Position numbers and translations under genes: made by a program
The notes under the pieces: model-generated
Told to the model about the DNA's origin: nothing
Databases searched by the model: none
The model's input: only the letters and a program-made list of their open reading frames with translations
Shown here: positions 9,316 through 38,986 of the stretch, in pieces
How the letters are laid out: each line of letters begins with the position of its first letter
How positions within the stretch are numbered: position 1 is the first letter of the stretch
NCBI GenBank assembly: GCA_030621225.1
Contig: JAUXIB010000001.1
Span: 1,253 to 65,252, forward strand
Direction of reading: 5' to 3'
Source: a candidate division FCPU426 bacterium
GTDB lineage: Bacteria > Oederibacteriota > JAUXIB01
Length of the DNA stretch: 64,000 nucleotides

Positions 9316-9356
9316 ACCATAAAAGAACGAGATACGAACTACGAGTAACGCGGTCA

Positions 9357-21600: not shown

Positions 21601-21790
21601 AAAAGAGTTTTTTCCACCACAAAGACACAAAGAACACCAAGTATTCACGAAGAGGAGTTCCTTGGGTGTTCTCTTTGTGACCTTCGTGTCTTAGTGGTTA
21701 AAATACCTATTTTAAACCGGCTAAACCTTCCTACTTCAAATTTCGTTATACTATATATCAGGGGGTTAAGCCGGCTAAGAGGGAGTCCGG

Positions 21791-22375
21791 TTGGTGGATA
21801 AATCCATAGAATTATTAGTTAAGCAGGCCAAACAAGGCAATCCGGAAGCCTTTGAAAAGCTGGTAGTGCTCTACCGGCAGAGGATCTATCGTGTGGCTTT
21901 CCGCGTGGTGCGGGAGAAAGAAAGCGCGTTGGATGTGGCCCAGGAAGTTTTTATCAGAGTCCATGCTGAGTTAAAGAACTGCCGGGGAGAGGCGGCTTTT
22001 GAGGGGTGGCTCTATAGGTTGGTTACTAATCTTGCTATTGACCATTATCGTCGGGCCAGGAAGCGCCGCTGCCTGTCTCTTTTTAAGGACTTTGCGGGAA
22101 AGGAAAGCCCGGAGCGCGTTTTAGAGGCCGGCCGGGCGAACGAGCGGCTGGGCAGAGCCTTGGATAGCTTGACTGACCGCCAGCGGCAAATATTTGTGCT
22201 GAAGCATTATCAGGGATTGAGCATCGTCGAGATCGCCGGGGTGATCCGCGCGGCGGAGGGAACGGTGAAAGCTACGCTGCATCAAGCGGTTGGTAAGATG
22301 AGGAATTTTTTGCTGGATGAAGCTAAAAGGGACGCGGGACCCGGGACACGGGACTCGGGACCCGCAAAGGGTTGA
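21791..22375 (+). CDS. ECF sigma factor.
   Basis: Region 2 (GWLYRLVTNLAIDHYRRARKR) and region 4 (LSIVEIAGVIRAAEGTVKATLHQAVGKMR). The C-terminal tail is encoded by a CACGGGA-type repeat. Confidence 0.8.
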   Translation: MVDKSIELLVKQAKQGNPEAFEKLVVLYRQRIYRVAFRVVREKESALDVAQEVFIRVHAELKNCRGEAAFEGWLYRLVTNLAIDHYRRARKRRCLSLFKDFAGKESPERVLEAGRANERLGRALDSLTDRQRQIFVLKHYQGLSIVEIAGVIRAAEGTVKATLHQAVGKMRNFLLDEAKRDAGPGTRDSGPAKG

Positions 22376-22376
22376 C

Positions 22377-23399
22377 ATGGACTGCGACAAGGTAAAAGAA
22401 AGACTAGCACTCTACTTCTACGGCGAGAGTGGCGGTGAAACGCGAGCCATAAAGGCACATCTGAAAAAATGCCCGGTTTGTCGTAGTGAGTTTGCGGAGC
22501 TGAAGCAAGTCGGGAAGCTGGCGGACGGGATGGAGATACCGCCGGTGGGCGACGGGGAATGGGTCCGTTTTGCTGACAATGTGCGGCAGGGCATCGTTTC
22601 CCGCCCGCTACACGGGCGTTTTCTGCGTCCCCTTGTGCTTTGGCCTGCTCTGGCCGCGGCCGCGGCGGCGTTTATTTTGCATCTTCAGTTTACTCCCGCG
22701 GAGAAGATAAGCGGCGAGACCGTACCTGTTTGTGGTGATCAGCTGGCCCTTGCCGAAGATAGCTCGGCTGAAGAGTCGGCGGCGCGAGTGGGGGCCGCCG
22801 CGGAGTTTCAACTGAGCGAGCCAACGAAGAAGCAAGCGCCGCGGATAGAGCTTGCCGCGCAGGCGCCGGCTGCGATGGAAAAAGACGAGGAAACCGCTCA
22901 GGTTGTCCGGGAGCCAGAGTTCGCTTCTGGAGAAACGATCGATCAGCGACCGTTGGGGTTCGTTCGGCCGGGAGCGGCGCTGCCGGGACCAGCGGCAATG
23001 GACGCCGCCGGGACCACACAGCGTCCCGTCGCTGTCGCGAGCTGCAAAGATGGTAAGGGGGACGACGCAGGGGATATCCCCCGCCCGGAACCGACGGCAA
23101 GCGCTACGCCGTTGAGAGACAGGATAGTCTTGAAAAATAATAAGATAAACCCGTTATTGGGAGATAAGGCGACCATCGTTTACCGTTTGCCGGAAGGTGG
23201 CCGCGTACGTCTGGCGGTCTATAACAGCCTGGGGGAACTGATGCTTGTCCTCTATCAGGGAGAGAGGAATGCCGGGACGTTTGAAGAGTACTGGGAAGGC
23301 GCCAATCGGGCGGGTGCTGTGGTTAGCGCCGGCATCTATTTTGTTAGTATTGAAACGCCCTCCTATAACGAGCGGCGTAAGATAGTAGTGGTAAAGTAG
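22377..23399 (+). CDS. Anti-sigma factor with a zf-HC2 domain, one TM helix, an acidic Ala/Pro-rich linker, and a C-terminal T9SS-type (FlgD-Ig-like) sorting domain.
   Basis: HLKKCPVCRSEF motif and TM helix LVLWPALAAAAAAFILHL. The C-terminal ~85 aa (NNKINPLLGDKATIVYRL...VYNSLGEL...WEGANRAG..SAGIYFVSIET...KIVVVK) align with the C-termini of four neighbouring proteins. Confidence 0.65.
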   Translation: MDCDKVKERLALYFYGESGGETRAIKAHLKKCPVCRSEFAELKQVGKLADGMEIPPVGDGEWVRFADNVRQGIVSRPLHGRFLRPLVLWPALAAAAAAFILHLQFTPAEKISGETVPVCGDQLALAEDSSAEESAARVGAAAEFQLSEPTKKQAPRIELAAQAPAAMEKDEETAQVVREPEFASGETIDQRPLGFVRPGAALPGPAAMDAAGTTQRPVAVASCKDGKGDDAGDIPRPEPTASATPLRDRIVLKNNKINPLLGDKATIVYRLPEGGRVRLAVYNSLGELMLVLYQGERNAGTFEEYWEGANRAGAVVSAGIYFVSIETPSYNERRKIVVVK

Positions 23400-23412
23400 C
23401 CAGGGGATCACC

Positions 23413-25746
23413 ATGCGTTTCTCAAGCAGAATACTTATTATCACCTGTTTCGTTCTGTTGCTGGTCGCCGGTAAAGCAGAAGCATATACCGTGGTATTTC
23501 CTGATCCTAACCTTGAGGTGGCGATAAGAAGTGCGATCGGGAAACCCGTGGGTGATATAGATAATACCGAGCTCATCGGTCTCACCACGCTAACTGCTTC
23601 TTATAGCGGTATCGCCGATCTGACCGGGTTAGAGGAATGCGTGGATCTTATATACATAAACTTCTGGGGTAATTCAATATCCGACATTAGCCCGTTGTCT
23701 GGTCTGAGCAACTTGCAGGGCCTTCTTTTTCGAGATAATTCCATTAGTGATATCAGCGCACTGTCTGGGTTGATCAACTTACAGACCATTGGGTTCAACT
23801 CTAATTCCATTAGTGATATCAGCGCGCTGTCGGGGTTGACCAACTTACAGACCATTAGGTTCTACTCTAATTCCATCAGCGATATCAGCGCGCTGTCGGG
23901 GTTGGTGAACCTGACCGATGTTTGGCTCGAATGGAATGCCATCAGCGATGTAACTGCTCTAGTGGCGAATTGCGACGCGGGGGGGCTCGGTGCAGGTGAC
24001 GCTGTGTATATCAGGAACAATCCCTTGAGTGCCCAGGCCGAAAACGTTGATATACCATATTTGCAGGGCAAGGGTGTCTTTGTACAGTACGGGGATTATA
24101 CGATGACTACAACGCTAACGCTTACAGCTGCTATTTCCACCACTCATACTCCCACACCGACAAGCAGCGTCACCTCGACAGTTACTCCCACAGCGACAGT
24201 CAGCGCTACCTCGACAATCAGCGCAACGGTGACCCCAACCCAGCAGGTGGTTGTTTTTCCTGATAGTGGCTTGCAAGCGGCTGTCAGGAGCGCCATTGGT
24301 AAGCCGGCGGGGGACATATACAAGACGGACCTGATCGGACTTACTCTTCTGGACGCGCACGGCTCGGGTATCAGCGATCTGACCGGGCTGGAGGAATGCT
24401 CTGATCTAGCCAGCCTTTTTCTTGCCGATAACAGCATCGTTGATCTTGCGCCGCTCTCTGGGCTGGGTAATCTTACCTATCTGGAACTGTCCTCGAATTC
24501 CATTAGCGATCTTAGCCCGCTGGCCGGGTTGACGGGCCTGGGTAACCTGTTGCTGGACAGCAATTCTATTAGTGGGCTCGGACCGTTGAGCGGTTTGACC
24601 TCGTTGACCAACCTAACCTTGAGTGGTAACTCGATTAGTGACGCTACGGCCCTGGGTTCTCTTACGACCTTGAAAGGTCTGAATCTGAATAATAATTTAT
24701 TGGCAAACCTCGCGGCGCTTTCCGCGCTTACAGTGTTGACCAGTCTTTCACTGGATGACAACTCTGTAAGTAATGTAAGTCCGCTTGCTGCGCTGACGGA
24801 GTTAACCAGTCTGGGGCTGAATGCTAATTCCCTAGCGGATATTTCCGCTTTGTCCGGGCTGATCAAGCTGACCCAGTTATATCTGCAGGAAAATTCTATA
24901 GTTGATATCAGTTCCTTGGCGGGGCTGCTCAAGTTAGATAATCTTTTGTTGAGGAATAATTCTATCAGTGAAGTGAGCTCGCTGGTGACGAACTGTGACG
25001 CGAGCGGTCTAGAGGGAGGCGACTGGGTGGATTTGCGGGGGAATCCCTTGGAGTCGCAGGCGTTGAATACGGATGTTCCCTATTTGCTAAGCAAGAGCAT
25101 CAACGTGATGTATGACCTTCCCCCGACGCCAACGCCAACGCCGACAGTGCGCTTGTCGGTAACGGTGCGGGCCTGTCCGGGGCAGGAAGATTATCTCCAG
25201 TTGCGCATGAGTTCTATTGACGCTTCATTCGTGGATTGTGATAGCGCTTACTTCCAAGTATATCTGCAAGCTTCTGCGGGGGTTCCGCTGAGCGTGAGCG
25301 CGGCAGCCGGTGACGGTAAAAGTTGTTGGGCGCGTTACTATCCTGAGCCTGGCTGGCGGGATATCGACGTTGTCTACGCTTATGCCAGGGACGACGAAGG
25401 TTCCTGGGGTGTGTCTAACGGAAGTTTCCAGCGGGAAATATGCTCGGAAGGCGGGGCAGTCATGCGCAACAACAAGATATATCCGCTTAAGAACGATCAG
25501 CCCGTGGTGGTGCAGTTTAACGCCAAGGGGCGATGCCGTGTTGCTGTCTATAACCAGGCCGGCGAGGTGGTGGCGGGCCTGCTGGGGGACGGCAGCGCCG
25601 CTATGATCTCGTTATCTGAGGGTACACACCAGGTTAGCTGGGGCGGGGAATCACGGATCGGGTCGTTGGTGTCAAGCGGCATATATACCATTGTGGTAGA
25701 GACCCCGGATTACGTGAAGAAGTTTAAGGTGGTTGTGATCAAGTAG
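23413..25746 (+). CDS. Secreted leucine-rich-repeat protein with two LRR modules, Thr/Ser/Pro linkers, a conserved pre-CTD domain and the CTD.
   Basis: Signal peptide, and 22-residue repeats of the form NSISDIS.LSGL.NL. It has a duplicated N-cap (VVFPD..L..A.RSAIGKP) and the C-terminal KFKVVVIK sorting domain. Confidence 0.7.
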   Translation: MRFSSRILIITCFVLLLVAGKAEAYTVVFPDPNLEVAIRSAIGKPVGDIDNTELIGLTTLTASYSGIADLTGLEECVDLIYINFWGNSISDISPLSGLSNLQGLLFRDNSISDISALSGLINLQTIGFNSNSISDISALSGLTNLQTIRFYSNSISDISALSGLVNLTDVWLEWNAISDVTALVANCDAGGLGAGDAVYIRNNPLSAQAENVDIPYLQGKGVFVQYGDYTMTTTLTLTAAISTTHTPTPTSSVTSTVTPTATVSATSTISATVTPTQQVVVFPDSGLQAAVRSAIGKPAGDIYKTDLIGLTLLDAHGSGISDLTGLEECSDLASLFLADNSIVDLAPLSGLGNLTYLELSSNSISDLSPLAGLTGLGNLLLDSNSISGLGPLSGLTSLTNLTLSGNSISDATALGSLTTLKGLNLNNNLLANLAALSALTVLTSLSLDDNSVSNVSPLAALTELTSLGLNANSLADISALSGLIKLTQLYLQENSIVDISSLAGLLKLDNLLLRNNSISEVSSLVTNCDASGLEGGDWVDLRGNPLESQALNTDVPYLLSKSINVMYDLPPTPTPTPTVRLSVTVRACPGQEDYLQLRMSSIDASFVDCDSAYFQVYLQASAGVPLSVSAAAGDGKSCWARYYPEPGWRDIDVVYAYARDDEGSWGVSNGSFQREICSEGGAVMRNNKIYPLKNDQPVVVQFNAKGRCRVAVYNQAGEVVAGLLGDGSAAMISLSEGTHQVSWGGESRIGSLVSSGIYTIVVETPDYVKKFKVVVIK

Positions 25747-25884: not shown

Positions 25885-26322
25885 ATGAAAAAAGCATTTA
25901 GTGCTGCGATGGTTGTTGGTTTGTTGTTGGTCACTACTGCTATTGCGCACGAGCCTGCGAAGGAGCAGAAGGAGAAGCACTTGCGTGTAAACGCGCAGGC
26001 GAACGCCTTCCTGGCCAAGGAATTGGGTGTGCCGCTGGCGGCGATACAGAACGCGCGTGGTATGGATTATCCCTTTAGCAATACGCTTTTCTTTGCGGTG
26101 GTGATTTCTCAGACCAGGGGCAAGGCAAAGATGAAGGACGTGGTTGTGCTCAGCGAAGCGGGGAGAAGCTGGGGGGAGATCTGTGAGCAGTATGGGTTGG
26201 ATTACGAGGTAATGGTTACGGAGAGAAGACGTGTTCTTAAGAGGATGCGGCAGGCAGGGATCGAAGTACCCGGTGTAACGGACGAGGAGTGGCAGAAATT
26301 ATTTGATTTAAAACCGGAGTGA
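25885..26322 (+). CDS. Small secreted protein of an unknown family; paralog of the gene at 28754.
   Basis: Signal peptide. The motifs VNAFLAKELGVPLAAI and DYPFS..FFFAVV.SQ.KGKAKMKDV are shared with the paralog. Confidence 0.5.
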   Translation: MKKAFSAAMVVGLLLVTTAIAHEPAKEQKEKHLRVNAQANAFLAKELGVPLAAIQNARGMDYPFSNTLFFAVVISQTRGKAKMKDVVVLSEAGRSWGEICEQYGLDYEVMVTERRRVLKRMRQAGIEVPGVTDEEWQKLFDLKPE

Positions 26323-26328: not shown

Positions 26329-28608
26329 GTGAGAATTTTTGTTCTGACAACGATTTTTTTGTTATTTCCAGTGTTAACAGGCTGGGCAATCCCGGTTTAT
26401 AACGGTGACACCCTCACCGATGATGACTGGCCGATGTTTGGCGGAAATATCCATCATACAGGGGTCGGCAAGGACCTGCCCAACTTTAAGAGTATGCAGC
26501 TCTGCGGTCAGAGATCGTTGGGGGGAGGATGGATAAAAAGCCAGCCGATAGCTGTGGCGGGAAGACTTTACGCTAATACGGAAGGGGGCTACACATACAG
26601 CTTGAATATCCATGATCTGAGCGCTCCGCCCTACTGGGTCAAAAACGTGGGCGGGGGTGTTTTTACCTCTCCTTTGTATTACAAGGGTAATGTTTATATT
26701 TTGGATCGTAATTCTCAGTTGTCGGCGTTTGACATTGACGGTAACTTGCTATGGACTTATACGGGTACCGCCAGTTATTATGCCAATCAGAACTCTCCCA
26801 TCGCTGCTAATGGCGTCATTTATTTCGGTGATATGATGGGAATAGTTTATGCGATAAATACGGATGGCACCCTCCGCTGGGGTAGGGCGCTGTATGATCG
26901 CGTACATACTGAAGCGGTCTATGATGTTGAGCGGGAACGTATTTACATCGGAGCTTCCAGCGGCAAGATTTATGTTCTGGATGCAGGGGACAACCCCGCT
27001 ACCTGGGGCAAGGTGGTTGGGATGGATGATATAGGAGGAGACATGCTTTATGGGGGCCTGTCTTTTTACAAGGGTGCTACATCGGCGGATGATAAGGTGA
27101 TCAGCGGCGGGGAGGACGGTCATGTGCATTCCTTTCGGGCGGAGCCCTTTGCTTTTTTGGATTCGTACGCTACTGGCGGTACCATTACTGCCGCCCCGGC
27201 TATCAAGGACGGTAGGGTTTATGTGGCCTCAAATTCGCATCGTGTCTATGGGCTTGACCTGTTAGCTGACGGTAGCTTTGCTGATGTATGTTATTCATTG
27301 AGCAATAATAATTATCCCAAACAGAGCCCCTGTATTATAGTAGCCTGTGAAATTATTGCTTCCGGTTGCCATGGGGACAGGGTTATTATGCGGTGTACGG
27401 ACTGTGAAACAGTGTGGTATGAGGATACTACCGCGGATACATGGGGGGGCTTGATATCGCACGAGGGGAAGATCGCGGTGACCGGCAAGAACGTGATCTT
27501 CACTTATTGCCCGGTGCTCGATATCCCTACGCTTACAGCAAGTATGACCTCTACTGTTACGCCCAGCGTGACTCCGACCGCCAGTCCCACTGCTACTATT
27601 AGCGCCAGTATTACCGCCAGTGTCACCCCCAGCATGACACCCAGTGCTACCCCTACCTTTACCTCCACTGTAACTTCTACTGCCACTGTTACCATAACCG
27701 CTACTGCTACCGTAACCGTCACCGGTACCTGGACAGAGACCGGCACGGTTACCAAGACCAGTACCGACACACTGGTGTTTACTCCCACTAATACTCTTAC
27801 TGTGACCGGTACTAACACTTTTACTTTGACCTGTACTGATAGTGTTACGCTTACCGATACGCCTACGGCAAGTCCGAGCCATACTTCTGTTGCTACGTTT
27901 ACCGACACGCCTACGGCAAGTTCGAGTCATACGCCCAGTGCTACGCGGACGGTTACTCCGACAGCTACTCTCACTGGCACCATGACTCCTTCTTCTACCG
28001 CAACTTTTACTATTACCTGTGAGGTGGAACCACCACAGCTATCGGTAAAGGTGGTCTTTGACCCGGAGCGCTCGGATGATCTGATGCTGATCATGAAGTC
28101 CTCCGAGCCGGTGGATTGCTCCCAAAGCTATTTCGAAGCCTATCCGCATTCGTATCCACGGGATAAGCGGGAGTGCCGTGAGGTCACCCAGGTGGACGAG
28201 ACCACCTGCCAGTGCTACCTGCCGCGCGAGGTGGGATTCGGTGATCTCGCTAAAGTCTACGCTTATGCCGTTGATCACTGCGGCAACCAGGGGGTCTCTG
28301 ACGGGGAGTTTGAGCTGGAGGTGATCCCGGATTCGGGAGTGGTGATAACCAGCAACAAGATCCGTCCGGGAAGCTGCGCCGGGATAATCTACCAGCTGGA
28401 GGACGCGACGCGGGTGGAGATAAAGATCTACAATCTGGCCGGGGAACTGATAAAGGTGATCCAGAACGGCAATCAGCCGGCGGGACGTTACCAGGAAGAA
28501 TGGTGCGGAGGTAACCAGGCAAATGAATTTGTGGCCAGCGGTATTTATGTCGTATATATACGCACGGATTTCTACGAGGTGACGGAGAAGATAGTGGTGC
28601 TGAAATAG
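26329..28608 (+). CDS. Secreted PQQ-repeat beta-propeller protein with a ~170-aa Thr/Ser-rich linker, a Cys-containing conserved domain and the CTD.
   Basis: GTG start with signal peptide. The N-terminus has the DDDWPMFGGNIHHTG motif and repeated Y.G.....YALD propeller blades. The TS-rich region spans 27.53-28.02 kb, and the gene ends KIVVLK. Confidence 0.7.
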   Translation: MRIFVLTTIFLLFPVLTGWAIPVYNGDTLTDDDWPMFGGNIHHTGVGKDLPNFKSMQLCGQRSLGGGWIKSQPIAVAGRLYANTEGGYTYSLNIHDLSAPPYWVKNVGGGVFTSPLYYKGNVYILDRNSQLSAFDIDGNLLWTYTGTASYYANQNSPIAANGVIYFGDMMGIVYAINTDGTLRWGRALYDRVHTEAVYDVERERIYIGASSGKIYVLDAGDNPATWGKVVGMDDIGGDMLYGGLSFYKGATSADDKVISGGEDGHVHSFRAEPFAFLDSYATGGTITAAPAIKDGRVYVASNSHRVYGLDLLADGSFADVCYSLSNNNYPKQSPCIIVACEIIASGCHGDRVIMRCTDCETVWYEDTTADTWGGLISHEGKIAVTGKNVIFTYCPVLDIPTLTASMTSTVTPSVTPTASPTATISASITASVTPSMTPSATPTFTSTVTSTATVTITATATVTVTGTWTETGTVTKTSTDTLVFTPTNTLTVTGTNTFTLTCTDSVTLTDTPTASPSHTSVATFTDTPTASSSHTPSATRTVTPTATLTGTMTPSSTATFTITCEVEPPQLSVKVVFDPERSDDLMLIMKSSEPVDCSQSYFEAYPHSYPRDKRECREVTQVDETTCQCYLPREVGFGDLAKVYAYAVDHCGNQGVSDGEFELEVIPDSGVVITSNKIRPGSCAGIIYQLEDATRVEIKIYNLAGELIKVIQNGNQPAGRYQEEWCGGNQANEFVASGIYVVYIRTDFYEVTEKIVVLK

Positions 28609-28753: not shown

Positions 28754-29209
28754 ATGAAAGTCAAGCGGAACGGCAGAGCACTGGTTTCTATATTGATGTT
28801 TAATTTTTTTCTGCTTAGTGCAGCCCATGCATATGAGCCGGCCGAAGCGGAAAAGGTCCACTATGCCCGCGTCAATGGGCAGGTTAACGCTTTCTTGGCG
28901 AAAGAACTGGGGGTGCCTCTTGCCGCTATAAAGCAAGCCCGTGATAGAGATTATCCCTTTAGTTATGCTTTTTTCTTTGCGGTGGTAGTAAGCCAGGGGA
29001 AGGGCAAAGCAAAGATGAAGGACGTTCTGGATATGCACGACGAGGGAGTGACTTGGGGTGAAATTTGTATCGAGTTCGGTCTGGATTTGCGGGTGCTGAG
29101 CGAGGAGATGAAGCGAGTTTTTAGAAAAATGATTGACTCCGGTCTGGACGTTCCGCCCCAGACTTATAAGGAAAGAAAAAAGTTATTTGAGATTGGGCCA
29201 AAAAAATAG
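28754..29209 (+). CDS. Small secreted protein; paralog of the gene at 25885.
   Basis: 151 aa with a signal peptide and the same conserved motifs. Confidence 0.5.
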   Translation: MKVKRNGRALVSILMFNFFLLSAAHAYEPAEAEKVHYARVNGQVNAFLAKELGVPLAAIKQARDRDYPFSYAFFFAVVVSQGKGKAKMKDVLDMHDEGVTWGEICIEFGLDLRVLSEEMKRVFRKMIDSGLDVPPQTYKERKKLFEIGPKK

Positions 29210-29288: not shown

Positions 29289-31376
29289 ATGACTCGAAAA
29301 CTTGACATATTTCGCGCTCCCCTTAGTATATTCTTTCTAGGGATTTTCTTCTTGATCCCATCGGCGATCGGTATACCACCCGAGCTTTACAACGGCGATG
29401 ATACTCTTACTGATGATGATTGGCCGATGTATATGGGCAACATCCACCACACCGGCGCGCCATTGGTTGATGATCCCTGTTTTTGTGAGTTGCAGTGGTG
29501 TGACATTATAGAACACATGGGTGAGATGTGGTCCGAGCCGATTGCGGTAGATGGACGGATCTATGTTGCGACTGCGAGCGGGGAACTGGTGGCCGCAGAC
29601 CTGGATACCTTGCAGGTGCTTTGGCGGAGGTCTACTGTTTATCAGGTTTTTTCCTCTCCGGTTTATTACAAGGGAAAGATATATGTTGTGAATAGTCGTA
29701 GTCAGTTAATGGCCTGGGATACTGATGGCAATCCGGAGCCGTGGGTGTATATTCCTGCCACTTCCTATGGGAGTTGGAGTTGTCCGATGGTGGTGGATGA
29801 TGTCATCTATTATGGTGACCCGTGGGGAAAAAGGGTGTATGCCGTAAACTTGGATGGCAGTGAGAAGTGGAGGAACCATTTTAGCGGCGGAATCTCGAAT
29901 GCCCTTGTTTACGATAGGGCGAGAAGCCGTCTCTACGTTGCGACCGGCAATGGCTATGTCTACGGGGTGGATGTGACCGACAACGGGAAGGTCATCTGGG
30001 TGACAAAAACAGACGGGGGGATCCTAGGCCTTTCTTTTTATAATGATGCTATCCTGGCTTTCAGTGGATTAACTGTTTACTCCTTAGACGCCGCGAATAA
30101 CGGTGCCATAAATGATTCCTATTTTTTAGACAGCGTAATGGGAGCGCCCGGGGCGGTGAAGAACGGTATGGTCTATCTCACTCCTAATTGGAGAATTGCA
30201 GGTTTCCCGATCTTTGGCGACGGTACCTTTGGGGTAGGTTGGGCGGTTTGGTCAGACAACAACCACCCCACGCATACTCCGCCACTTGTGGTTTGTTGTA
30301 AGGTTATCACCAACGGTTGTCATGGGTGGGTAGAGATAGTAGAATGCGAGTCTTCGGTTATGTCAGTGGCCGGGCGCACCTCTGATAGCCGGGCATCGTC
30401 AATAGCTTATAAAGGAAAGATATATATGCCCGGCTCTACGGAAATAAATGTATTTTGCCCGGTAGCGTGCACGGCTACTTGTACGGTGAGCCCGACCATT
30501 ACCGTAACGCTGACTGCCAGTCCAACGCCCAGTGTAACGCTGACTGCGACCCCTACACCTACGCCCAGTTCCAGTCTGACGGCCAGTCCTACTCCGAGTA
30601 GTAGTTCGACGCCCAGTGTGACCGCTACTGCCAGTTTCACGCCCAGCATGACCCCCAGCGTTACCCCGACCATTACCTTTACCACGACCCCTACCTGCAG
30701 TCAGACCAGGACGGATACCCCGGTCTGTAGCGATACGCCGACAGCTACTGTTACTCCTACTTACACGGTAACGCCGACCATCACCTGCGAATCCGCGCCG
30801 CCGCAATTGTCGGTGAAGGTGGTCTTTGACCCGGAGCGCTCGGACGACCTGATGCTGATCATGAAGTCTTCCAAGCCGATAGACTGCTCCCAGAGCTATT
30901 TCGAAGCCTACCCGCATTCGTATCCACGGGACAAGCGGGAGTGCCGTGAGGTCACCCAGGTGGACGAGACCACCTGCCAGTGCTACCTGCCGCGCGAGGT
31001 GGGGTTTGGTGACATCGCCAAAGTCTTCGCTTATGCCGTTGATCACTGCGGCAATCAGGGGGTCTCTGACGGGGAGTTCGAGCGGGAGGTGATCCCAGAT
31101 TCAGGCGTGGTAATAACTAACAACAAGATCCGATTGGGAAGCTGCGCCGGGATAATCTACCACCTAGAGGACGCGACGCGGGTGGAGATAAAGATCTACA
31201 ACTTGGCCGGGGAGCTGATAAAGGTGATCCAGGACGGCAACCAGCCGGCGGGACGTTACCAGGAAGAATGGTGCGGGGATAACCAGACGAATGAATTTGT
31301 GGCCAGCGGTATTTATGTCGTATATGTACGCACGGATTTCTACGAGGTGACGGAGAAGATAGTGGTGCTGAAATAG
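29289..31376 (+). CDS. Second secreted PQQ-repeat beta-propeller-CTD protein; paralog of the gene at 26329.
   Basis: Internal ATG at 29289 gives signal peptide MTRKLDIFRAPLSIFFLGIFFLIPSAIG. The last ~190 aa are more than 90% identical to the paralog at the nucleotide level. Confidence 0.7.
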   Translation: MTRKLDIFRAPLSIFFLGIFFLIPSAIGIPPELYNGDDTLTDDDWPMYMGNIHHTGAPLVDDPCFCELQWCDIIEHMGEMWSEPIAVDGRIYVATASGELVAADLDTLQVLWRRSTVYQVFSSPVYYKGKIYVVNSRSQLMAWDTDGNPEPWVYIPATSYGSWSCPMVVDDVIYYGDPWGKRVYAVNLDGSEKWRNHFSGGISNALVYDRARSRLYVATGNGYVYGVDVTDNGKVIWVTKTDGGILGLSFYNDAILAFSGLTVYSLDAANNGAINDSYFLDSVMGAPGAVKNGMVYLTPNWRIAGFPIFGDGTFGVGWAVWSDNNHPTHTPPLVVCCKVITNGCHGWVEIVECESSVMSVAGRTSDSRASSIAYKGKIYMPGSTEINVFCPVACTATCTVSPTITVTLTASPTPSVTLTATPTPTPSSSLTASPTPSSSSTPSVTATASFTPSMTPSVTPTITFTTTPTCSQTRTDTPVCSDTPTATVTPTYTVTPTITCESAPPQLSVKVVFDPERSDDLMLIMKSSKPIDCSQSYFEAYPHSYPRDKRECREVTQVDETTCQCYLPREVGFGDIAKVFAYAVDHCGNQGVSDGEFEREVIPDSGVVITNNKIRLGSCAGIIYHLEDATRVEIKIYNLAGELIKVIQDGNQPAGRYQEEWCGDNQTNEFVASGIYVVYVRTDFYEVTEKIVVLK

Positions 31377-31640
31377 CTCGAAGGAATTCTGAATTCTGAG
31401 TTATGAATTATGAAAACGGTGGTCAGTGGTCAGTGGTCGGTGGATGGTGGTCAGTGAGCAGCTTGCCCAGAGCGTACTAACGCGAATGGTACAGGGATAC
31501 TAGATACGAGATACTAGCATCAAGTCTCGAGTTCTGGAAAAGAGTAACCAAGAGGTAAAAAACATCACAGTAGGGGCGTCCCTCTGCGGGCGCCCCTCGC
31601 CCAAAGGGCGAGTAGAGCCAAAAACCAAAGCGTCTCGATA

Positions 31641-31666
31641 AAAGCCGACATTATTGTCGGTTTTTT
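31641..31666 (+). terminator. Rho-independent terminator.
   Basis: CCGACA-TTAT-TGTCGG stem followed by T6. Confidence 0.55.
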
Positions 31667-31728: not shown

Positions 31729-34104
31729 TTGCGTTATTTTCTGATCACTCTTTTGTTTGCTTCCTTGCTAATCGCACGCCTGGGTGCGATCGGCGGCAGT
31801 GGAGCCAACTTTCTGCGTCTGGAGCAGGGGGCCAGGCCTTTAGGTATGGGCGGCGCCTTTGTCGGTCTGGCCGACGATGCTGACGCTGTATACTGGAATC
31901 CGGCCGGTCTTTCCCGTCTGCGCTATCCCCAACTTACGTTCACCCATTATCAGGGCATTGCCGACCTGACGAGCGAATTTTTCAGCCTGGCTATCCCCAC
32001 TGAGAAGTGGGGCGGGTTCGGTTTAAATATCCTCTATAGCAGCGTAGAAGACCTAAAGCATTATAATAGCTTTGGCGTGGAAGTGGGTGAAATAGAAAAT
32101 TATGACCTGGCCCTGGAGACTTCCTGGGGCGACCGCTTTCACCCTCTCTTTAGTGCCGGGGCGGGCATGAAGTATTACTTTAGCCGCCTGGAAGAAGTAC
32201 ATGCTTGGGGCTATGCCATGGATTTTGGCCTGATCCATTACTTGCCCTGGTCCGGGGCTACTTTTGGTATGGCCTTGCGCAACCTCGGCCCGGGGATATG
32301 TTACCTGGCGGCCGCCGATCCGCTGCCCTTGAATCTTAAGTTGGGTCCTGCGGTCAAACGTCACCTGAGAGGGAGACACTGGTTGACGCTCTCCATGGAA
32401 ATGGATCGCATCCTGCTCTCGGGGGAAAACAGCTATATTCAAGCCGGGTTTGAATATGCCTACGGACGTATTTGTTTTCTGCGTGGCGGCTATCGTTTTG
32501 GCAGGGATAACGATTATTATTCTCTGGGCATGGGCTGTGGTCTCAAACCTGTATGGGTGGATTACGTTTATATTCCTTACGGGCCGATCGGTATGACCCA
32601 CCGTGTCTCACTGACCCTGGGCTGGCCGAAAGGGAAAAAGGAACTGCCGCGTATCTTTCGCAAGCGGACTGCCCGTCCGGTGGCCTATTTGACCGGGGAA
32701 GAGCGGATGGTATTGCCGCGGCAGTCCATTCAACTAAAGGCGGAAGTCATCAGTCTTGCTGAGGTTATAGATTGGCAGTTGAGCTTGGAGGACTGGCGGG
32801 GGAAAGTGGTGCGCGAATTTACGGGGCAGGGCGTCCCGCCCGCGGCGATCCTCTGGTATGGTAAGAATATAAACGGTCAATTGGTCGTCTCCGGTCGTTA
32901 TACCGGCAAGTTTTCCGTGCGGGACAGGAACGGCAGAAGGGGGACGGCACAACGGGATTATCATTTGTTGGAGGTAGAAGAGGTGGTAATGCGCTTGCCG
33001 GCCGCTGTGCTCTTTGATTCAGGGCACATTGAGCTTCGGGCGGCGGGAAAGGCGAGGCTGCGGGAGATTTATCAGGAGATAACGGGCAAATATCCCGGTT
33101 GTCGCCTGCGTGTGGAGGGGCATTCTGATAATGTTCCGCTTCGCCCGGGAGGGCCGGCGCGGGATAACCAGGAGCTTTCCGAGCGGCGTGCCGGCAGTGT
33201 GGGGGAAGTGTTGCGAGAATTCGGATTTCCCGCCGCGCGCTTGGGCATAGTCGGCTTTGGTTCCTTGCGGCCTATTGCGACTAATGACAACGACGCGGAT
33301 AGGGCCAGGAACAGGCGGGTGGAGCTTGTGGTGGAAAAGAGTGCGGCGGTAACCAAGTTGCCGCCGATTATAGGGAGTGATCTGACCCTTGATGGCAAAG
33401 GCAGCCCTTACTTGGTTGACGGGGACGTACTGGTACAGGCGGGAGCTACCCTGACCGTTGAAGCGGGAGTGGTAATTAAATTTGCATCAGGTTCGTACGG
33501 CGAAGCGACGGCTTCCTCTACTGTTTCAAGCGATCTTATCGTTTTGGGCGGTTTGCGTGCTGTGGGCGAGGCGGGAAGGCCGGTCGTTTTTATTGGCAGC
33601 GAGGGAGGGGCGTGGGGGGCGATTTTCTTCGGCCGTGGCGCGGGCGAAGACTGCCTGCTGGAGCATTGCCGTCTGGAGCGGGGGAAGATAGTTTGCAATT
33701 ACGCTTCGCCGGGCATCAGGAGATGTGTTATCAGAGAGGGTGGCGGTATTGAAGTGGGGCATAAGGCGGCGCCGATTATTGAAGGCAATCTGTTGGAGAA
33801 AAACAGCAGCGGTATTCTCTGCTGGTTTGACAGCTCGCGCCTTTCTTTGCGCTACAATACTATCAGCGGTAACAAGTATGGTCTGGTCCTGCGCGGCATC
33901 GGCGAGGCGGCCGTAGAAAACAACAACATCTGCGCTAACCAGATAGACCTGGCAAACATGACAACGCAGAATGTCAGGCTAGCCAATAATTGGTGGGGTT
34001 CTACCGATGTGTTTGAGATAAAGCGTAATGTTCACGACGGAGAAGATGACGCGGGCAAGGGGCTGGTCATCGTGGAGCCGGTATTGCAAGAGGCGGTCAG
34101 ATGA
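31729..34104 (+). CDS. Fusion protein: PorV/PorQ-like (FadL-like) outer-membrane beta-barrel, then an OmpA-family peptidoglycan-binding domain, then a right-handed beta-helix.
   Basis: TTG start after a GAGGGGGAG ribosome-binding site. The N-terminus LRLEQGARPLGMGGAFVGLADDADAVYWNPAGLS matches the signature of PorV-family barrels. The central region RLRVEGHSDNVPL...ELSERRAGSV...NRRVELVV is OmpA-like. The C-terminus has NosD-like parallel beta-helix repeats. Confidence 0.55.
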   Translation: MRYFLITLLFASLLIARLGAIGGSGANFLRLEQGARPLGMGGAFVGLADDADAVYWNPAGLSRLRYPQLTFTHYQGIADLTSEFFSLAIPTEKWGGFGLNILYSSVEDLKHYNSFGVEVGEIENYDLALETSWGDRFHPLFSAGAGMKYYFSRLEEVHAWGYAMDFGLIHYLPWSGATFGMALRNLGPGICYLAAADPLPLNLKLGPAVKRHLRGRHWLTLSMEMDRILLSGENSYIQAGFEYAYGRICFLRGGYRFGRDNDYYSLGMGCGLKPVWVDYVYIPYGPIGMTHRVSLTLGWPKGKKELPRIFRKRTARPVAYLTGEERMVLPRQSIQLKAEVISLAEVIDWQLSLEDWRGKVVREFTGQGVPPAAILWYGKNINGQLVVSGRYTGKFSVRDRNGRRGTAQRDYHLLEVEEVVMRLPAAVLFDSGHIELRAAGKARLREIYQEITGKYPGCRLRVEGHSDNVPLRPGGPARDNQELSERRAGSVGEVLREFGFPAARLGIVGFGSLRPIATNDNDADRARNRRVELVVEKSAAVTKLPPIIGSDLTLDGKGSPYLVDGDVLVQAGATLTVEAGVVIKFASGSYGEATASSTVSSDLIVLGGLRAVGEAGRPVVFIGSEGGAWGAIFFGRGAGEDCLLEHCRLERGKIVCNYASPGIRRCVIREGGGIEVGHKAAPIIEGNLLEKNSSGILCWFDSSRLSLRYNTISGNKYGLVLRGIGEAAVENNNICANQIDLANMTTQNVRLANNWWGSTDVFEIKRNVHDGEDDAGKGLVIVEPVLQEAVR

Positions 34105-34163
34105 TATTTTAACTGGCAGTAGTGGCGTCCTTCCACGGGCGCCACCAGCCAAAGGCTGGTCAA

Positions 34164-34949
34164 ATGTCGAAAGCTGGCTATAAGAAAATAGCGATGTTAC
34201 TGGCTGGAGTGGTGATGTTGTGGACTTCGGTCGCTTGTGCAGAGGACTACCTGCGTGCGGCCGGTACTCTGTATAAAAACGGTGAACTGGCTGATGCTGC
34301 CGTTTATCTGGAGGCGGCGTTGAAGAAGCAGCCGAACTGCCAGGATTGCTGGCAGTTACTGGGGTACTGCCATTATAACCTGGGGGAGTTTGCCAAGGCT
34401 TTGCAGGCCTACCGGAAGATGTTGGAGCTTTCTCCGGGGCGGGATGACGTGAGGCGGCTAATCCAAGAAATAGAGCAGGAGATCAAGAGCGCGGAGAAGG
34501 ACAAAAGCAACCGGCGGGAAACAGTGCGGAGAAGACGTAGCGGTTGGGGGGCGATATTGGGTGTGCCCAGCGGTGTGACTTTTGCCAGGAGGTTACAGGA
34601 CATGTACATAGTGACGCTGATGTTGGGGTCACGGTTTGATAACCAGATAGCCTTGAGCGCTGATATGTTCGCGCGCTTTTCGCTGGAGGAGAGTGGCGTC
34701 ACCTATATCAGTTTTGGCCTGGGTTGGTGCACGATGGCCGGCGGCAGCGAGACGGTGGGAATCACTGAAACCGGTAAGATCTTAAAGGTGGCGCGGCAGA
34801 CGCGCGCCGGGCCGAATATTCCCCTGGCCGTGTCGTATTTTTTTGGCGGCACGGAGTTCTTTTTACAGGGGAGCGCTATGATCGAGATTACTCCTGAGTA
34901 TAAATTGGTGCCGGGCGGCGGCCTGGGGGTGCGGTGGTATATTGAATAA
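34164..34949 (+). CDS. TPR-repeat protein with a C-terminal beta-rich segment.
   Basis: Signal or TM helix AMLLAGVVMLWTSVACA and TPR helices (AAVYLEAALKKQPNCQDCWQLLGYCHYNLGEFAKALQAY). Confidence 0.45.
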   Translation: MSKAGYKKIAMLLAGVVMLWTSVACAEDYLRAAGTLYKNGELADAAVYLEAALKKQPNCQDCWQLLGYCHYNLGEFAKALQAYRKMLELSPGRDDVRRLIQEIEQEIKSAEKDKSNRRETVRRRRSGWGAILGVPSGVTFARRLQDMYIVTLMLGSRFDNQIALSADMFARFSLEESGVTYISFGLGWCTMAGGSETVGITETGKILKVARQTRAGPNIPLAVSYFFGGTEFFLQGSAMIEITPEYKLVPGGGLGVRWYIE

Positions 34950-37732: not shown

Positions 37733-38986
37733 ATGATGCAGAGGACGCTATACGCTATACGCTATACGCTGTACGCGATCAACAGCGCGTTGTTGATCGC
37801 CGCATTGCTCAATATGCCGCTTTACGCCGCTCCGGTAGCTGTGAGCTCGGCCAACTATGAGATCGACTGGGACGTGGTCGACGCGGGCGGCGCGGCGCGC
37901 AGTTCGGCGACTTACTACGTTAACGACTCGCTGGGTCAGGCGGCAAGCAGCTTTGTCGGCTCAGTCAGCTATGATCACAGCATCGGCTTTCAACGGATGG
38001 CTTCGCCGACGATGACTGCCACACCGACCGCTACCGTAACGCGTACTGTTTCTGTTACCTATACGCCTACTGCTACGCCTACCGCTACCGAGAGTGCTAG
38101 TCATACACCGAGTTACAGCCCCACTTCTACCTCTACCGCTACATCGACCAGCACACCTAGTTGGACGGCTACTGATACTGAAACCAGTACTCCTACTGCC
38201 ACCTTTAGCTGGACGGAGACGGATACGCCTACAGCTACACCGAGCCGGACGGAGACAGCGACTCCCTCGGCCAGCCCCAGCCTGACCATGACGGCCACGC
38301 TGACCCGAACCCGGTCGATTACGCGTACGACCACGGAGACGTATACCCTGAGTTCCAGTCCTACTTCTACGCGGACGGCTACCAGGACGGTTACGCGCAG
38401 CGTTACTCGGACAATGACGCGCACTTCTACCGGGACGGCAAGCAAGACCTATAGTCCTACCCGCACTTGGACGAGCACGGCGACGCCTACTTTCACGCCG
38501 AAACCCACCCGCAGCGTCACCCTTACAGTAACCAGGTCAGCTACACATACGCACAGTGTTACGGTTTCGGCGACGCCAACCTGGACGCCTACGCTCACCC
38601 GGAGCGCGACTTATACGATCAGTTCCACTTACACGTCCAGCTCCACCGTTACGCCTACCTTTACCATAACGCCTACTTTCACACGTACGCCGACTTGGTA
38701 TCTGCCCGCTTTCCTGGACAAGAATCATTTTAATCCTGCCGCGGGCGAGGAATTGCTGATACGCGGTCTTGCCGCGCGGGCTGGGCACTTGACGGTGGAT
38801 GTTTACTCGATAAACGGCGAGCGGATCGGCCGGGTGTTGGAGCGGCAAGTGAAACTGAAAGAACCATATCGTACCAGTTGGAGCGGGCGTAACGCTACCA
38901 AGGATTTTGTGGGCAACGGCGTATACATGGTGTTGATCAAGTGCGGCGATTGGCAGGAGATCAAGAAGGTGATTGTGTTGAAGTGA
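37733..38986 (+). CDS. Secreted protein made almost entirely of a Thr/Ser/Pro/Ala-rich linker plus the CTD.
   Basis: N-terminal hydrophobic segment, about 250 aa of TPTATxT repeats, and the C-terminal NPAAGEELLIRGL...VYSINGERIG...WSGRN...GNGVYMVLIK...KVIVLK. Confidence 0.55.
   Translation: MMQRTLYAIRYTLYAINSALLIAALLNMPLYAAPVAVSSANYEIDWDVVDAGGAARSSATYYVNDSLGQAASSFVGSVSYDHSIGFQRMASPTMTATPTATVTRTVSVTYTPTATPTATESASHTPSYSPTSTSTATSTSTPSWTATDTETSTPTATFSWTETDTPTATPSRTETATPSASPSLTMTATLTRTRSITRTTTETYTLSSSPTSTRTATRTVTRSVTRTMTRTSTGTASKTYSPTRTWTSTATPTFTPKPTRSVTLTVTRSATHTHSVTVSATPTWTPTLTRSATYTISSTYTSSSTVTPTFTITPTFTRTPTWYLPAFLDKNHFNPAAGEELLIRGLAARAGHLTVDVYSINGERIGRVLERQVKLKEPYRTSWSGRNATKDFVGNGVYMVLIKCGDWQEIKKVIVLK

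What the first reader, a model, noticed from the sequence alone, without database searches (positions are those of the whole stretch)
22377..23399. Anti-sigma factor whose extracytoplasmic part is a secretion-type CTD.
The N-terminal half is a classic zf-HC2 anti-sigma (HLKKCPVCRSEF plus one TM helix). The periplasmic portion is a disordered acidic Ala/Pro linker followed by the same CTD as the secreted cargo proteins. I do not know of a described anti-sigma with a T9SS/FlgD-Ig-type sorting domain. It suggests sigma release could be coupled to CTD recognition or cleavage (a PorU-like sortase step) or to outer-membrane shuttle occupancy.
Basis: inference. Interest (0 to 1): 0.78.

Follow-up and report, generated by a model that had tools for sequence, protein, structure and literature searches.

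The report
Anti-sigma factor carrying a secretion tag
A membrane-bound inhibitor of a transcription factor ends, on the periplasmic side, in the same C-terminal sorting domain that marks the neighbouring secreted proteins. This fusion recurs in many uncultured bacteria next to a PorV-type outer-membrane shuttle gene, which suggests a previously undescribed way of coupling gene expression to outer-membrane secretion.

Summary
ORF 22377-23399 encodes a 340-aa protein with four parts: a zinc-finger (H28-x3-C32-x2-C35) class-I anti-sigma domain matching RsiW, one N-in TM helix (82-104), a disordered acidic Ala/Pro linker, and a C-terminal 7-strand Ig-like domain. That last domain is about 40% identical to the C-terminal domains (CTDs) of the adjacent secreted proteins. 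Its best structural matches are T9SS CTD-bearing proteins (PorU, PorZ, mirolase, NucA) and FlgD.

It is not an assembly artefact. At least 25 proteins share the architecture, and the CTD is their most conserved region. An ECF sigma gene lies directly upstream in 9/9 loci. A PorV/PorQ-family gene sits in 6/6 loci where at least one flank was long enough to show neighbouring genes. CTD-tagged cargo genes (GH8, CBM3, LRR, beta-propellers) follow. In two related loci an ECF-type promoter motif precedes both the sigma gene and the cargo genes.

Best reading, by inference: the anti-sigma factor is a tethered pseudo-cargo whose CTD is engaged by the PorV-type sorting machinery. This would link sigma release to secretion, in the manner of FlgM or FecR. 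I found no description of such an anti-sigma factor in the literature. Whether these genomes have a complete T9SS is unknown. Verdict: new variant of a known kind, interest about 0.7.

The parts
21723..21748 (+). Candidate ECF-type promoter (AAACC-N16-TCGTTA) upstream of the sigma gene. Weak evidence.
   Evidence: A regex scan found it about 43 nt upstream of the sigma start. It does not match the GGAAC-N17-GTCxAA motif seen in related loci and has no second copy in the cluster.
21791..22375 (+). ECF sigma factor, 194 aa. Its 3' end carries a GGGACNC heptamer repeat.
   Evidence: Sigma70_r2 E 2e-15, Sigma70_r4_2 E 1.1e-12, TIGR02937 104 bits. It is 40% identical to the sigma of the orthologous locus L006. 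TRF finds the heptamer repeat at 22329-22364.
22377..23399 (+). The anti-sigma factor with a terminal CTD: the whole gene, 340 aa plus the stop codon.
22377..22526 (+). Cytoplasmic class-I (zinc-binding) anti-sigma domain, residues 1-50. The ligands are C3, H28, C32 and C35 (nt 22458-22481 for HLKKCPVC).
22620..22688 (+). Single transmembrane helix, residues about 82-104, N-in/C-out.
   Evidence: The Kyte-Doolittle maximum is 1.88 at residues 85-103, and R/H-rich residues lie on the N-terminal side. The model shows a helix at 88-105.
22689..23111 (+). Periplasmic disordered acidic Ala/Pro/Glu linker, residues about 105-245.
   Evidence: Composition and net charge of -9. pLDDT is about 40. The family linkers are 101-170 aa (median 117) and the sequence is not conserved, at 16% mean identity.
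23112..23396 (+). C-terminal sorting-type domain (FlgD-Ig / T9SS type-A-like CTD), residues 246-340, ending in K340.
   Evidence: It is the most conserved region of the family, at 35.5% mean identity.
23413..25746 (+). Cargo 1: signal peptide + two LRR blocks + CTD. It starts 13 nt after the anti-sigma stop, so it is probably in the same operon.
   Evidence: LRR_4 E 1.4e-40, FlgD_ig 23.3 bits. The local CTD HMM gives E 2e-17.
25885..26322 (+). Small secreted protein of unknown function, a paralogue of 28754-29209.
   Evidence: No family hit. Position only.
26329..28608 (+). Cargo 2: signal peptide + PQQ/BamB-like beta-propeller + Thr/Pro linker + CTD.
   Evidence: PQQ_2 E 3.3e-16, FlgD_ig 33 bits against a gathering score of 27.
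28754..29209 (+). Second small secreted protein of unknown function.
   Evidence: No family hit.
29289..31376 (+). Cargo 3: PQQ-propeller + CTD. Its CTD is 92% identical to that of cargo 2. The start is probably the ATG at 29289.
31640..31665 (+). Intrinsic-terminator-like hairpin (11 bp stem + T run), the likely end of the sigma/anti-sigma/cargo operon.
31729..34104 (+). PorV/PorQ-family outer-membrane barrel fused to an Ig-like segment, an OmpA peptidoglycan-binding domain and a beta-helix. It is the candidate receptor or shuttle for the CTDs.
   Evidence: NF033709 PorV_fam scores 161.7 bits against a cut-off of 90. OmpA E 1.2e-16, Beta_helix E 4e-8. It is 38% identical over its full length to the equivalent gene of locus L006.
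34122..34949 (+). TPR protein directly after the PorV fusion. A PorV-TPR fusion exists in L002.
37733..38986 (+). Fourth CTD-bearing protein of the cluster, 417 aa, followed by a terminator at 39150-39173.
   Evidence: The local CTD HMM gives E 3e-14. TIGR04183 scores 17.3 bits. Terminator.

Best explanation
The gene encodes a single-pass, zinc-finger (RsiW-like) anti-sigma factor for the ECF sigma factor encoded immediately upstream. Its only folded periplasmic element is a cargo-type C-terminal sorting domain (CTD), held on a disordered tether of about 140 residues that is long enough to reach the outer membrane.

**Proposed mechanism (inferred).** The protein acts as a tethered pseudo-cargo.
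1. Its CTD is recognised by the same PorV-family outer-membrane sorting machinery that handles the co-encoded CTD cargo proteins.
2. Engagement, and probably removal, of the CTD exposes the unstructured tail.
3. The tail is degraded by regulated intramembrane proteolysis, as for RsiW and RseA.
4. The sigma factor is freed to transcribe its own operon and the cargo genes.

Transcription of the cargo would then be gated by the activity or availability of the sorting pathway. This is the logic of FlgM export through the flagellar apparatus, with the trans-envelope geometry of FecR/FecA signalling.

**Shown:** the domain architecture and topology; the CTD fold and its kinship to local cargo CTDs; conservation of the fusion; synteny with the sigma gene, PorV-family genes and cargo; and a shared ECF-type promoter motif in two related loci.

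**Inferred:** CTD-PorV contact, cleavage, proteolysis, and the direction of regulation.
For: **Anti-sigma identity.**
- zf-HC2 scores above its cut-off.
- RsiW matches at E 3.9e-9.
- An ECF sigma gene lies directly upstream in 9/9 loci that hold upstream DNA: window, L002, L005, L006, L007, L008, L011, L013, L015.

**The CTD is cargo-type.**
- It is 40-42% identical to the CTDs of cargo in the same locus, closer than to the CTDs of other anti-sigma factors at 30-37%.
- It always sits at the extreme C-terminus.
- The terminal Lys is kept in 18/19 members. This matches the near-invariant Lys close to the C-terminus of type A CTDs that contacts PorV (PMC10994853).
- Its best structural matches are T9SS CTD proteins.

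**Selection.** The CTD is the most conserved region of the family: 35.5% mean identity, against 25% for the anti-sigma domain and 16% for the linker.

**Reach.** Linker length is constrained to 101-170 aa although its sequence is free.

**PorV link.**
- A PorV/PorQ-family gene scores above the NCBIfam cut-off in window, L002 (two copies), L005, L006 and L008. One was also found in L015 by a local HMM.
- That is 6/6 non-redundant zinc-finger loci where at least one flank was long enough to show neighbouring genes.
- It lies immediately downstream of the anti-sigma gene in three loci and immediately upstream of the sigma gene in one.

**Regulon.**
- GGAAC-N16-18-GTCHWA occurs upstream of the sigma gene and again upstream of downstream cargo genes.
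- L005 has 4 sites against 0.08 expected. L008 has 2 against 0.11 expected.
- In the window, cargo 1 starts 13 nt after the anti-sigma stop, and a terminator follows cargo 3.

**Convergence.** Two other N-terminal types that lack the zinc finger (P0137, P0037) have the same TM-linker-CTD layout and also follow ECF sigma genes.

**Precedent.** The CTD of P. gingivalis PorA binds PorV and feeds into the ECF sigma factor SigP (PMC7712824).
Against: - No interaction, cleavage or proteolysis has been tested, and the sign of the regulation is a guess.
- By sequence the domain is nearer to Pfam FlgD_ig than to canonical T9SS CTDs. PF18962 scores 12.8 bits against a gathering score of 27, TIGR04183 only just reaches its cut-off, and the NucA CTD matches at E 0.73 by sequence.
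- In the canonical T9SS the CTD binds PorV loops inside the SprA pore. No SprA, PorU or PorK-N gene is seen in the window or in any locus, and the source organism could not be placed in a phylum.
- The window's own sigma gene lacks the GGAAC...GTC motif, and I could not define its regulon.
- The promoter pattern was derived after the fact from the sigma-upstream regions, so only the extra sites are independent evidence.
- The PorV background frequency in these genomes is unknown, so 6/6 cannot be converted into a P-value.
- The one non-zinc-finger locus with flanks (L011) shows no PorV gene within the 8.9 kb held.
Confidence: 0.4

Rival explanations
1. Shuttle-occupancy or load sensor, with the opposite sign of regulation. 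The anti-sigma CTD sits docked on the PorV-type protein and is protected there. When periplasmic cargo CTDs accumulate, or the shuttle becomes limiting, they displace it. The freed tail is degraded and the sigma factor raises expression of the shuttle and cargo operon. This would be an envelope-stress-like response to a secretion backlog.
For: It rests on the same structural and synteny evidence as the main model. The anti-sigma CTD resembles local cargo CTDs, so it could compete for the same site. In several loci the PorV gene lies inside the putative sigma operon.
Against: Cargo inducing more cargo is a positive loop with no obvious brake. No evidence discriminates it from the pseudo-cargo model. 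The same unknowns apply about the machinery.
Confidence: 0.25
2. Generic periplasmic Ig-like sensor. The FlgD-Ig-type domain was recruited only as a binding module for a ligand, for peptidoglycan or the outer membrane, or for homotypic CTD-CTD contact. It is never handled by a sorting machine, and the link to secretion is only common ancestry of the domain.
Against: The domain is always the last element, ends at the very C-terminus and keeps the terminal Lys. It belongs to the same subfamily as local cargo CTDs. The PorV-family gene is syntenic in 6/6 loci. Three unrelated N-terminal types converge on the same TM-linker-CTD layout.
Confidence: 0.2
3. Artefact or misannotation: a frameshifted fusion of an anti-sigma gene with a downstream CTD gene, or a membrane-anchored cargo whose N-terminus only resembles an anti-sigma domain by chance.
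For: zf-HC2 and CTD scores for the single sequence are close to their thresholds. The source is a metagenome-assembled contig.
Against: The ORF is continuous and identical in a second assembly. 25 proteins from different samples have the same layout with invariant H/C/C. The family profile matches RsiW at E 3.9e-9. A sigma gene lies upstream in 9/9 loci.
Confidence: 0.03

Closest known systems
RsiW / sigma-W of Bacillus subtilis, and RseA/MucA-type class-I anti-sigma factors
   Different: The extracytoplasmic part is not an RsiW- or RseA-type domain. It is a long disordered tether ending in a cargo-type sorting domain. No site-1 protease is identifiable.
FlgM / sigma-28 flagellar checkpoint, and T3SS regulators such as ExsE
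   Same: The logic is the same: the inhibitor of a sigma factor carries the export signal of the secretion apparatus whose substrates that sigma factor controls. Secretion competence therefore licenses transcription. This comparison rests on my own knowledge of these systems and was not tested here.
   Different: There is no sequence or fold relationship. FlgM is soluble and exported whole through an inner-membrane T3SS. Here the anti-sigma factor is anchored in the inner membrane, and only its C-terminal tag could be engaged at the outer membrane.
PorA - PorXY - SigP of Porphyromonas gingivalis (PMC7712824)
   Same: A CTD-bearing protein whose CTD interacts with PorV relays information about the T9SS to an ECF sigma factor that controls T9SS genes.
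   Different: PorA is a separate surface protein that acts through a two-component system, and the link to SigP is indirect. Here the CTD is fused directly to the anti-sigma factor.
FecA / FecR / FecI cell-surface signalling
   Same: An outer-membrane barrel encoded next to an ECF sigma/anti-sigma pair. The anti-sigma factor spans the periplasm to contact it. The sigma factor controls the linked transport genes.
   Different: There is no FecR or DUF4880 domain and no TonB-dependent transducer. The outer-membrane partner would be a PorV/FadL-like barrel, and the contact element would be a sorting domain.
T9SS type A CTD cargo and the PorV shuttle (PMC10994853; PMC12618676)
   Same: A terminal 7-strand Ig-like CTD with a conserved Lys near the C-terminus. 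T9SS CTD-bearing proteins are its top structural matches. Cargo genes are genetically linked to a cognate shuttle gene, as described for type B CTDs and PorP/SprF.
   Different: The carrier has a signal-anchor instead of a cleavable signal peptide, so it cannot be released. Sequence scores against canonical T9SS models are borderline. The rest of the T9SS was not seen. The PorV homologue in the window is fused to OmpA and beta-helix domains.

Membership tests
Class-I zinc-binding anti-sigma factor (zf-HC2, PF13490; RsiW/RsrA/ChrR type) | HxxxCxxC motif plus an upstream Cys/His ligand | tested here: met
   H28, C32 and C35 are invariant in 19 sequences. From my reading of the alignment, C3 is present in 16 of 19.
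Class-I zinc-binding anti-sigma factor (zf-HC2, PF13490; RsiW/RsrA/ChrR type) | Profile score above the curated threshold, or homology to solved anti-sigma domains | tested here: met
Class-I zinc-binding anti-sigma factor (zf-HC2, PF13490; RsiW/RsrA/ChrR type) | Encoded directly downstream of, and co-transcribed with, an ECF sigma gene | tested here: met
   In the window the gap is 1 nt. A sigma gene lies upstream in 9/9 loci with upstream DNA.
Class-I zinc-binding anti-sigma factor (zf-HC2, PF13490; RsiW/RsrA/ChrR type) | Binds and inhibits its sigma factor; binds zinc | not testable with these tools
   Needs two-hybrid, co-purification or reporter assays.
T9SS type A C-terminal sorting domain (TIGR04183 / PF18962) | Profile score above the curated threshold | tested here: inconclusive
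   TIGR04183 scores 23.1 bits against a cut-off of 23.0, so it is only just met. PF18962 scores 12.8 against 27, so it is not met.
T9SS type A C-terminal sorting domain (TIGR04183 / PF18962) | 7-strand Ig-like sandwich at the extreme C-terminus, resembling solved CTDs | tested here: met
T9SS type A C-terminal sorting domain (TIGR04183 / PF18962) | Near-invariant Lys close to the C-terminus (PMC10994853) | tested here: met
   K340 is present in 18/19 members, and K335 is common. Structural equivalence to RemZ K1110 was not checked.
T9SS type A C-terminal sorting domain (TIGR04183 / PF18962) | The carrier protein has a cleavable Sec signal peptide and is released to the periplasm | tested here: not met
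   The anti-sigma factor has an 81-residue cytoplasmic domain and an internal signal-anchor helix. The neighbouring cargo proteins do have N-terminal signal peptides.
T9SS type A C-terminal sorting domain (TIGR04183 / PF18962) | The genome encodes the T9SS core (SprA/Sov, PorU, PorK/L/M/N, PorV) | tested here: inconclusive
   Only a PorV/PorQ-family protein was found, in the window and 5 related loci.
T9SS type A C-terminal sorting domain (TIGR04183 / PF18962) | The CTD is cleaved by the PorU sortase after transport | not testable with these tools
   Requires proteomics or genetics.
FlgD Ig-like domain (PF13860) | Profile score above the gathering threshold | tested here: inconclusive
   It scores 25.6 bits against a gathering score of 27. 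The sister CTDs in the same cluster score 33.0 and 31.7. The family profile hits FlgD chains at E 4e-8.
FecR-type cell-surface-signalling anti-sigma factor | FecR/DUF4880 periplasmic domain and a TonB-dependent transducer partner | tested here: not met
   There are no such Pfam or NCBIfam hits in the protein or its neighbours.
FlgM-type secreted anti-sigma factor | FlgM fold or sequence; export of the whole anti-sigma factor | tested here: not met
   No FlgM hit. The protein is membrane-anchored. The resemblance is functional logic only.

The most novel reading that the evidence does not exclude
This would be a trans-envelope secretion checkpoint for an outer-membrane sorting pathway. An inner-membrane ECF anti-sigma factor acts as a tethered pseudo-substrate of a T9SS-like (PorV-dependent) machine. 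Capture or cleavage of the sorting tag at the outer membrane would be the signal that releases the sigma factor and switches on the cargo genes. It would be the first FlgM-like coupling of transcription to secretion described for CTD-dependent secretion. At least three unrelated N-terminal anti-sigma types appear to have evolved it convergently in uncultured lineages.
Probability: 0.35. Interest if true: 0.85.

Novelty: new variant of a known kind. Interest (0 to 1): 0.7.

Why it matters
How bacteria match the synthesis of CTD-tagged cargo to the capacity of the outer-membrane sorting pathway is poorly understood. In P. gingivalis only the indirect PorA-PorXY-SigP route is known.

This family wires a sorting tag directly onto an anti-sigma factor and keeps it next to a PorV-type gene and the cargo genes. 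That gives a simple and directly testable hypothesis for secretion-coupled transcription.

It would also add a new class of sensory input to ECF signalling. It suggests that PorV-family proteins plus FlgD-Ig-type CTDs form functional modules outside well-studied Bacteroidota. It could further provide a compact, portable sensor of secretion activity for synthetic biology.

Tried and rejected
1. **Single-sequence AlphaFold model.** The result was uninformative (pLDDT 43). I replaced it with an alignment-based model.
2. **Word-indexed protein searches.** The single protein and the family profile returned few members: 2 and 9 hits. The exhaustive phmmer search was what revealed the family.
3. **Scans of public DNA collections.** The genome-contig scan first failed with the broad alignment. 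With a subgroup alignment it returned one locus that was already known. The two metagenome scans added only L014, identical to L008, and L015. The family's taxonomic range therefore remains unknown.
4. **Taxonomy of the source organism.** The best named hits to its release factor 2 are only 55-60% identical and spread over many phyla. Accession searches in the literature found nothing.
5. **Shared promoter in the window cluster.** Only one weak AAACC-N16-TCGTTA site lies upstream of the sigma gene. The GGAAC...GTC motif of related loci occurs in the window only at the other sigma gene.
6. **The 764-aa protein at 35229-37523.** I tested whether it is a conserved extra component by comparing it with the 710-aa protein of L005. 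There was no meaningful similarity.
7. **A dedicated clade of anti-sigma CTDs.** I tested whether the anti-sigma CTDs form a clade separate from cargo CTDs. They do not, although the domain is short and the tree is weak.
8. **A single ECF group.** I tested whether the sigma factors form one group. They show only subgroup-level similarity.
9. **AFDB fold search.** The library was unavailable.
10. **ECF re-classification paper.** No matching anti-sigma type is mentioned, and no supplements are held.
Full report
**1. What is at the coordinates**

The window holds an uninterrupted ORF on the + strand ending at 23399. The ATG at 22377 lies one base after the TGA of the upstream gene and follows an AAGGG ribosome-binding site. 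Every homologue begins M-x-C, as this start does. An upstream ATG at 22317 would overlap the sigma gene and is unlikely to be used.

The upstream gene (21791-22375) is an ECF sigma factor. It matches Sigma70_r2 at E 2e-15, Sigma70_r4_2 at E 1e-12 and TIGR02937 at 104 bits.

**2. Anatomy of the protein**

- **Residues about 82-104, TM helix.** This is the only strongly hydrophobic segment. Arg and His residues on its N-terminal side indicate N-in/C-out topology.
- **Residues about 105-245, linker.** It is low-complexity: for 116-250, 20% Ala, 10% Pro, 10% Glu and net charge -9. It is predicted disordered, with pLDDT about 40.
- **Residues 246-340, C-terminal domain.** These form a 7-strand beta-sandwich modelled at pLDDT about 97.

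**3. Is the C-terminal domain the cargo CTD?**

Yes.

- *Identity to neighbours.* It aligns end-to-end with the C-terminal domains of the four signal-peptide proteins in the cluster. These are the LRR protein (23413-25746), two PQQ-propeller proteins (26329-28608 and 29289-31376) and a 417-aa protein (37733-38986). Identity reaches 42%, and all share the terminal K-x-V-V-x-K.
- *Profile scores.* Scores are borderline for this one sequence: FlgD_ig 25.6 bits against 27, and TIGR04183 23.1 against 23. Its sisters in the cluster pass FlgD_ig at 33.0 and 31.7 bits.
- *Foldseek.* The top matches are FlgD and PorZ, with the NucA and RemA CTD chains lower in the list.

By sequence alone the domain is closer to FlgD_ig than to the solved Bacteroidota CTDs. 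I call it a FlgD-Ig-type, T9SS-type-A-like sorting domain.

**4. Is the fusion real?**

An independent Logan assembly of run SRR14923484 is base-identical across 22107-25736.

More importantly, an exhaustive phmmer search of 1.84 billion cluster representatives returned full-length matches of 297-368 aa. Twenty-five retrieved proteins have the same layout:

- HxxxCxxC at residues about 24-33 (48 in the longer-start form of the window protein);
- a TM helix at about 80-105;
- a non-conserved linker of 101-170 aa (median 117);
- one CTD ending at the last residue.

Across the family the CTD is the most conserved region, at 35.5% mean pairwise identity. The anti-sigma domain is at 25% and the linker at 16%. 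The second refutation test, an artefactual junction, is also not met.

**5. Genomic context is conserved**

- **Sigma gene.** An ECF sigma gene lies immediately upstream in all nine loci that contain upstream DNA.
- **PorV/PorQ-family gene.** Members scoring above the NCBIfam cut-off of 90 bits occur as follows:

| Locus | Position | Score (bits) | Relation to the pair |
|---|---|---|---|
| window | 31729-34104 | 161.7 | after the cargo genes; fused to OmpA and beta-helix domains |
| L006 | 12326-14719 | 178 | after the cargo gene; same fusion, 38% identical over full length |
| L005 | 8091-8996 | 156.8 | directly after the anti-sigma gene |
| L008 | 9116-9835 | 100.6 | directly after the anti-sigma gene |
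| L002 | 5447-6316 | 117.7 | directly before the sigma gene |
| L002 | 3045-4370 | 131 | second copy, with TPR repeats |

  L015, a further independent locus, has a PorV-like gene right after the anti-sigma gene, found by a local HMM. That makes six of six non-redundant zinc-finger loci where at least one flank was long enough to show neighbouring genes.
- **Cargo genes.** The downstream genes encode CTD-tagged proteins, except that the L002 gene is cut by the contig end so its C-terminus was not seen. They are LRR and PQQ-propeller proteins (window), a 2207-aa PD40-propeller protein (L006), a GH8 and a CLIPPER-domain protein (L005), a CBM3 protein (L008) and a GH8 (L002).
- **Operon structure in the window.** Cargo 1 starts 13 nt after the anti-sigma stop. 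The first convincing terminator is at 31640-31665, after cargo 3. The sigma gene, the anti-sigma gene and three cargo genes plausibly form one operon.

**6. Regulon evidence from relatives**

The sigma-upstream regions of L005, L007, L008 and L011 carry a typical ECF promoter, GGAAC-N16-18-GTC(T/A/C)(A/T)A. The same pattern recurs upstream of downstream genes:

- **L005:** at 9028, before the gene after PorV, and at 12303, before the GH8-CTD gene. There are four sites in all against 0.08 expected.
- **L008:** at 9850, before the CBM3-CTD gene. There are two sites against 0.11 expected.

The pattern was derived from the sigma-upstream sites, so only the additional sites count as independent. 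They are placed exactly where promoters of cargo genes should be.

In the window this motif occurs only at the other sigma/anti-sigma pair, 10894-9855 on the minus strand. The sigma gene of interest has just a weak AAACC-N16-TCGTTA candidate.

**7. Convergence**

Two further N-terminal types lack the zinc finger (P0104/P0131/P0137 and P0037/P0053). They have the same N-in anchor, long linker and terminal CTD, and they also sit directly after ECF sigma genes. The TM-tether-CTD design has therefore been attached to ECF signalling more than once.

**8. How it most likely works**

*Shown.* An RsiW-like anti-sigma factor has as its only folded periplasmic element a cargo-type sorting domain, held on a tether whose length but not sequence is conserved. 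It is embedded in a conserved module with a PorV-family outer-membrane protein and CTD cargo.

*From the literature.*
- In the T9SS the CTD is the secretion signal.
- It binds the loops of the PorV carrier inside the SprA pore.
- A near-invariant Lys close to the CTD C-terminus contacts PorV (PMC10994853). The family keeps a terminal Lys in 18/19 members.
- Cargo and cognate shuttle genes are often linked (PMC12618676).
- The PorA CTD binds PorV and influences the ECF sigma factor SigP (PMC7712824).

*Inference.* The anti-sigma factor is a tethered pseudo-cargo. When the sorting machinery engages its CTD, and probably removes it, the remaining unstructured tail becomes a substrate for regulated intramembrane proteolysis. 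The sigma factor is then released and activates the cargo operon. Cargo synthesis is thus licensed by a working sorting pathway. This is FlgM logic with FecR-like geometry. I give this about 0.4.

*Rivals.*
- The mirror-image model has the CTD docked and protected until cargo displaces it. I cannot separate it from the main model with sequence data (0.25).
- A generic Ig-like sensor unrelated to sorting is possible (0.2). It is disfavoured by the strict terminal position, the terminal Lys, kinship to local cargo CTDs and the PorV synteny.
- An artefact is effectively excluded (0.03).

**9. Limits**

- No SprA, PorU or PorK-N gene is visible in the 64-kb window or in the related loci.
- The organism is a deep-branching uncultured bacterium. 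Its release factor 2 is at most 60% identical to any named sequence, and those are scattered over many phyla.
- Whether the CTD pathway here is a true T9SS or a simpler PorV-dependent system is therefore open.
- The background frequency of PorV genes in these genomes is unknown.
- The collection scans recovered few extra loci.

**10. Novelty**

Literature searches combining anti-sigma with T9SS, PorV, FlgD or zf-HC2, together with the ECF re-classification paper, found no description of an anti-sigma factor with a sorting-type CTD. Database members are unnamed or labelled 'hypothetical protein'.

ECF sigma/anti-sigma signalling and CTD sorting are both known kinds. The fusion and its conserved module are a new variant, with a plausible and testable new signalling logic.

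Noticed in passing
window, about 35 sites; for example 7188-7224, 13046-13077, 20457-20478, 20671-20702, 22329-22364, 25790-25858, 28616-28646, 31384-31456, 37745-37776, 62182-62227: Short period-7 tandem repeats of 3-5 copies sit in nearly every intergenic region. The unit sequence differs from site to site (GGGACNC, GAATTAT, GTGGTCA, CAGGATA, CGTCAAA, ACGCTAT and others). Some run into coding sequence and give the odd 'GTRDxGHGTRD' peptides in the sigma tail and in the radical-SAM-like ORF 20368-21600. They resemble cyanobacterial STRR heptamer repeats (TRF).
   Followed up: partly
window 31729-34104; L006 12326-14719: An unusual fusion protein: a PorV/PorQ-family barrel, an internal Ig-like segment with a FlgD-like W.G..G..V..G.Y pattern, an OmpA peptidoglycan-binding domain and a C-terminal beta-helix. 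It is conserved at 38% identity over its full length between two loci.
   Followed up: partly
window 25885-26322 and 28754-29209: Two paralogous small secreted proteins (145 and 151 aa). Each sits immediately in front of a PQQ-propeller-CTD cargo gene. Neither hits any family. They may be cargo-specific chaperones or partners.
   Followed up: no
L011 6001-6960 (P0137) and L013 872-1834 (P0037): Proteins without the zinc finger but with the same N-in anchor, long linker and terminal CTD also follow ECF sigma genes. They are probably additional anti-sigma classes that use the same tag.
   Followed up: partly
window 9855-10894 (-): A second ECF sigma / zf-HC2 anti-sigma pair. The anti-sigma factor is short (168 aa) and has no CTD. 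A canonical GGAAC-N17-GTCTAA promoter lies at 10887-10915.
   Followed up: partly
L008 8890-9087 and 9062-9832 (the same in L014): The PorV-family gene after the anti-sigma gene is split over two reading frames in this lineage, and the split appears in separately deposited assemblies. It may be a frameshift, a pseudogene or a recoding event.
   Followed up: no
window 35229-37523: A 764-aa signal-peptide protein rich in Gly-containing repeats lies inside the PorV/CTD cluster. It has no family hit apart from a weak N-terminal match to a Bdellovibrio adhesive-fibre domain. It is not similar to the 710-aa protein at the equivalent place in L005.
   Followed up: partly
window 16245-18052 (-): Two adjacent minus-strand ORFs interrupt the otherwise plus-strand gene order and coincide with a dip in GC and GC skew. 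One begins MNIIQVYKQFPTQDACIAYLEKVRWNGKP, which looks like an IS1595-type transposase. This reading is from the sequence only.
   Followed up: no
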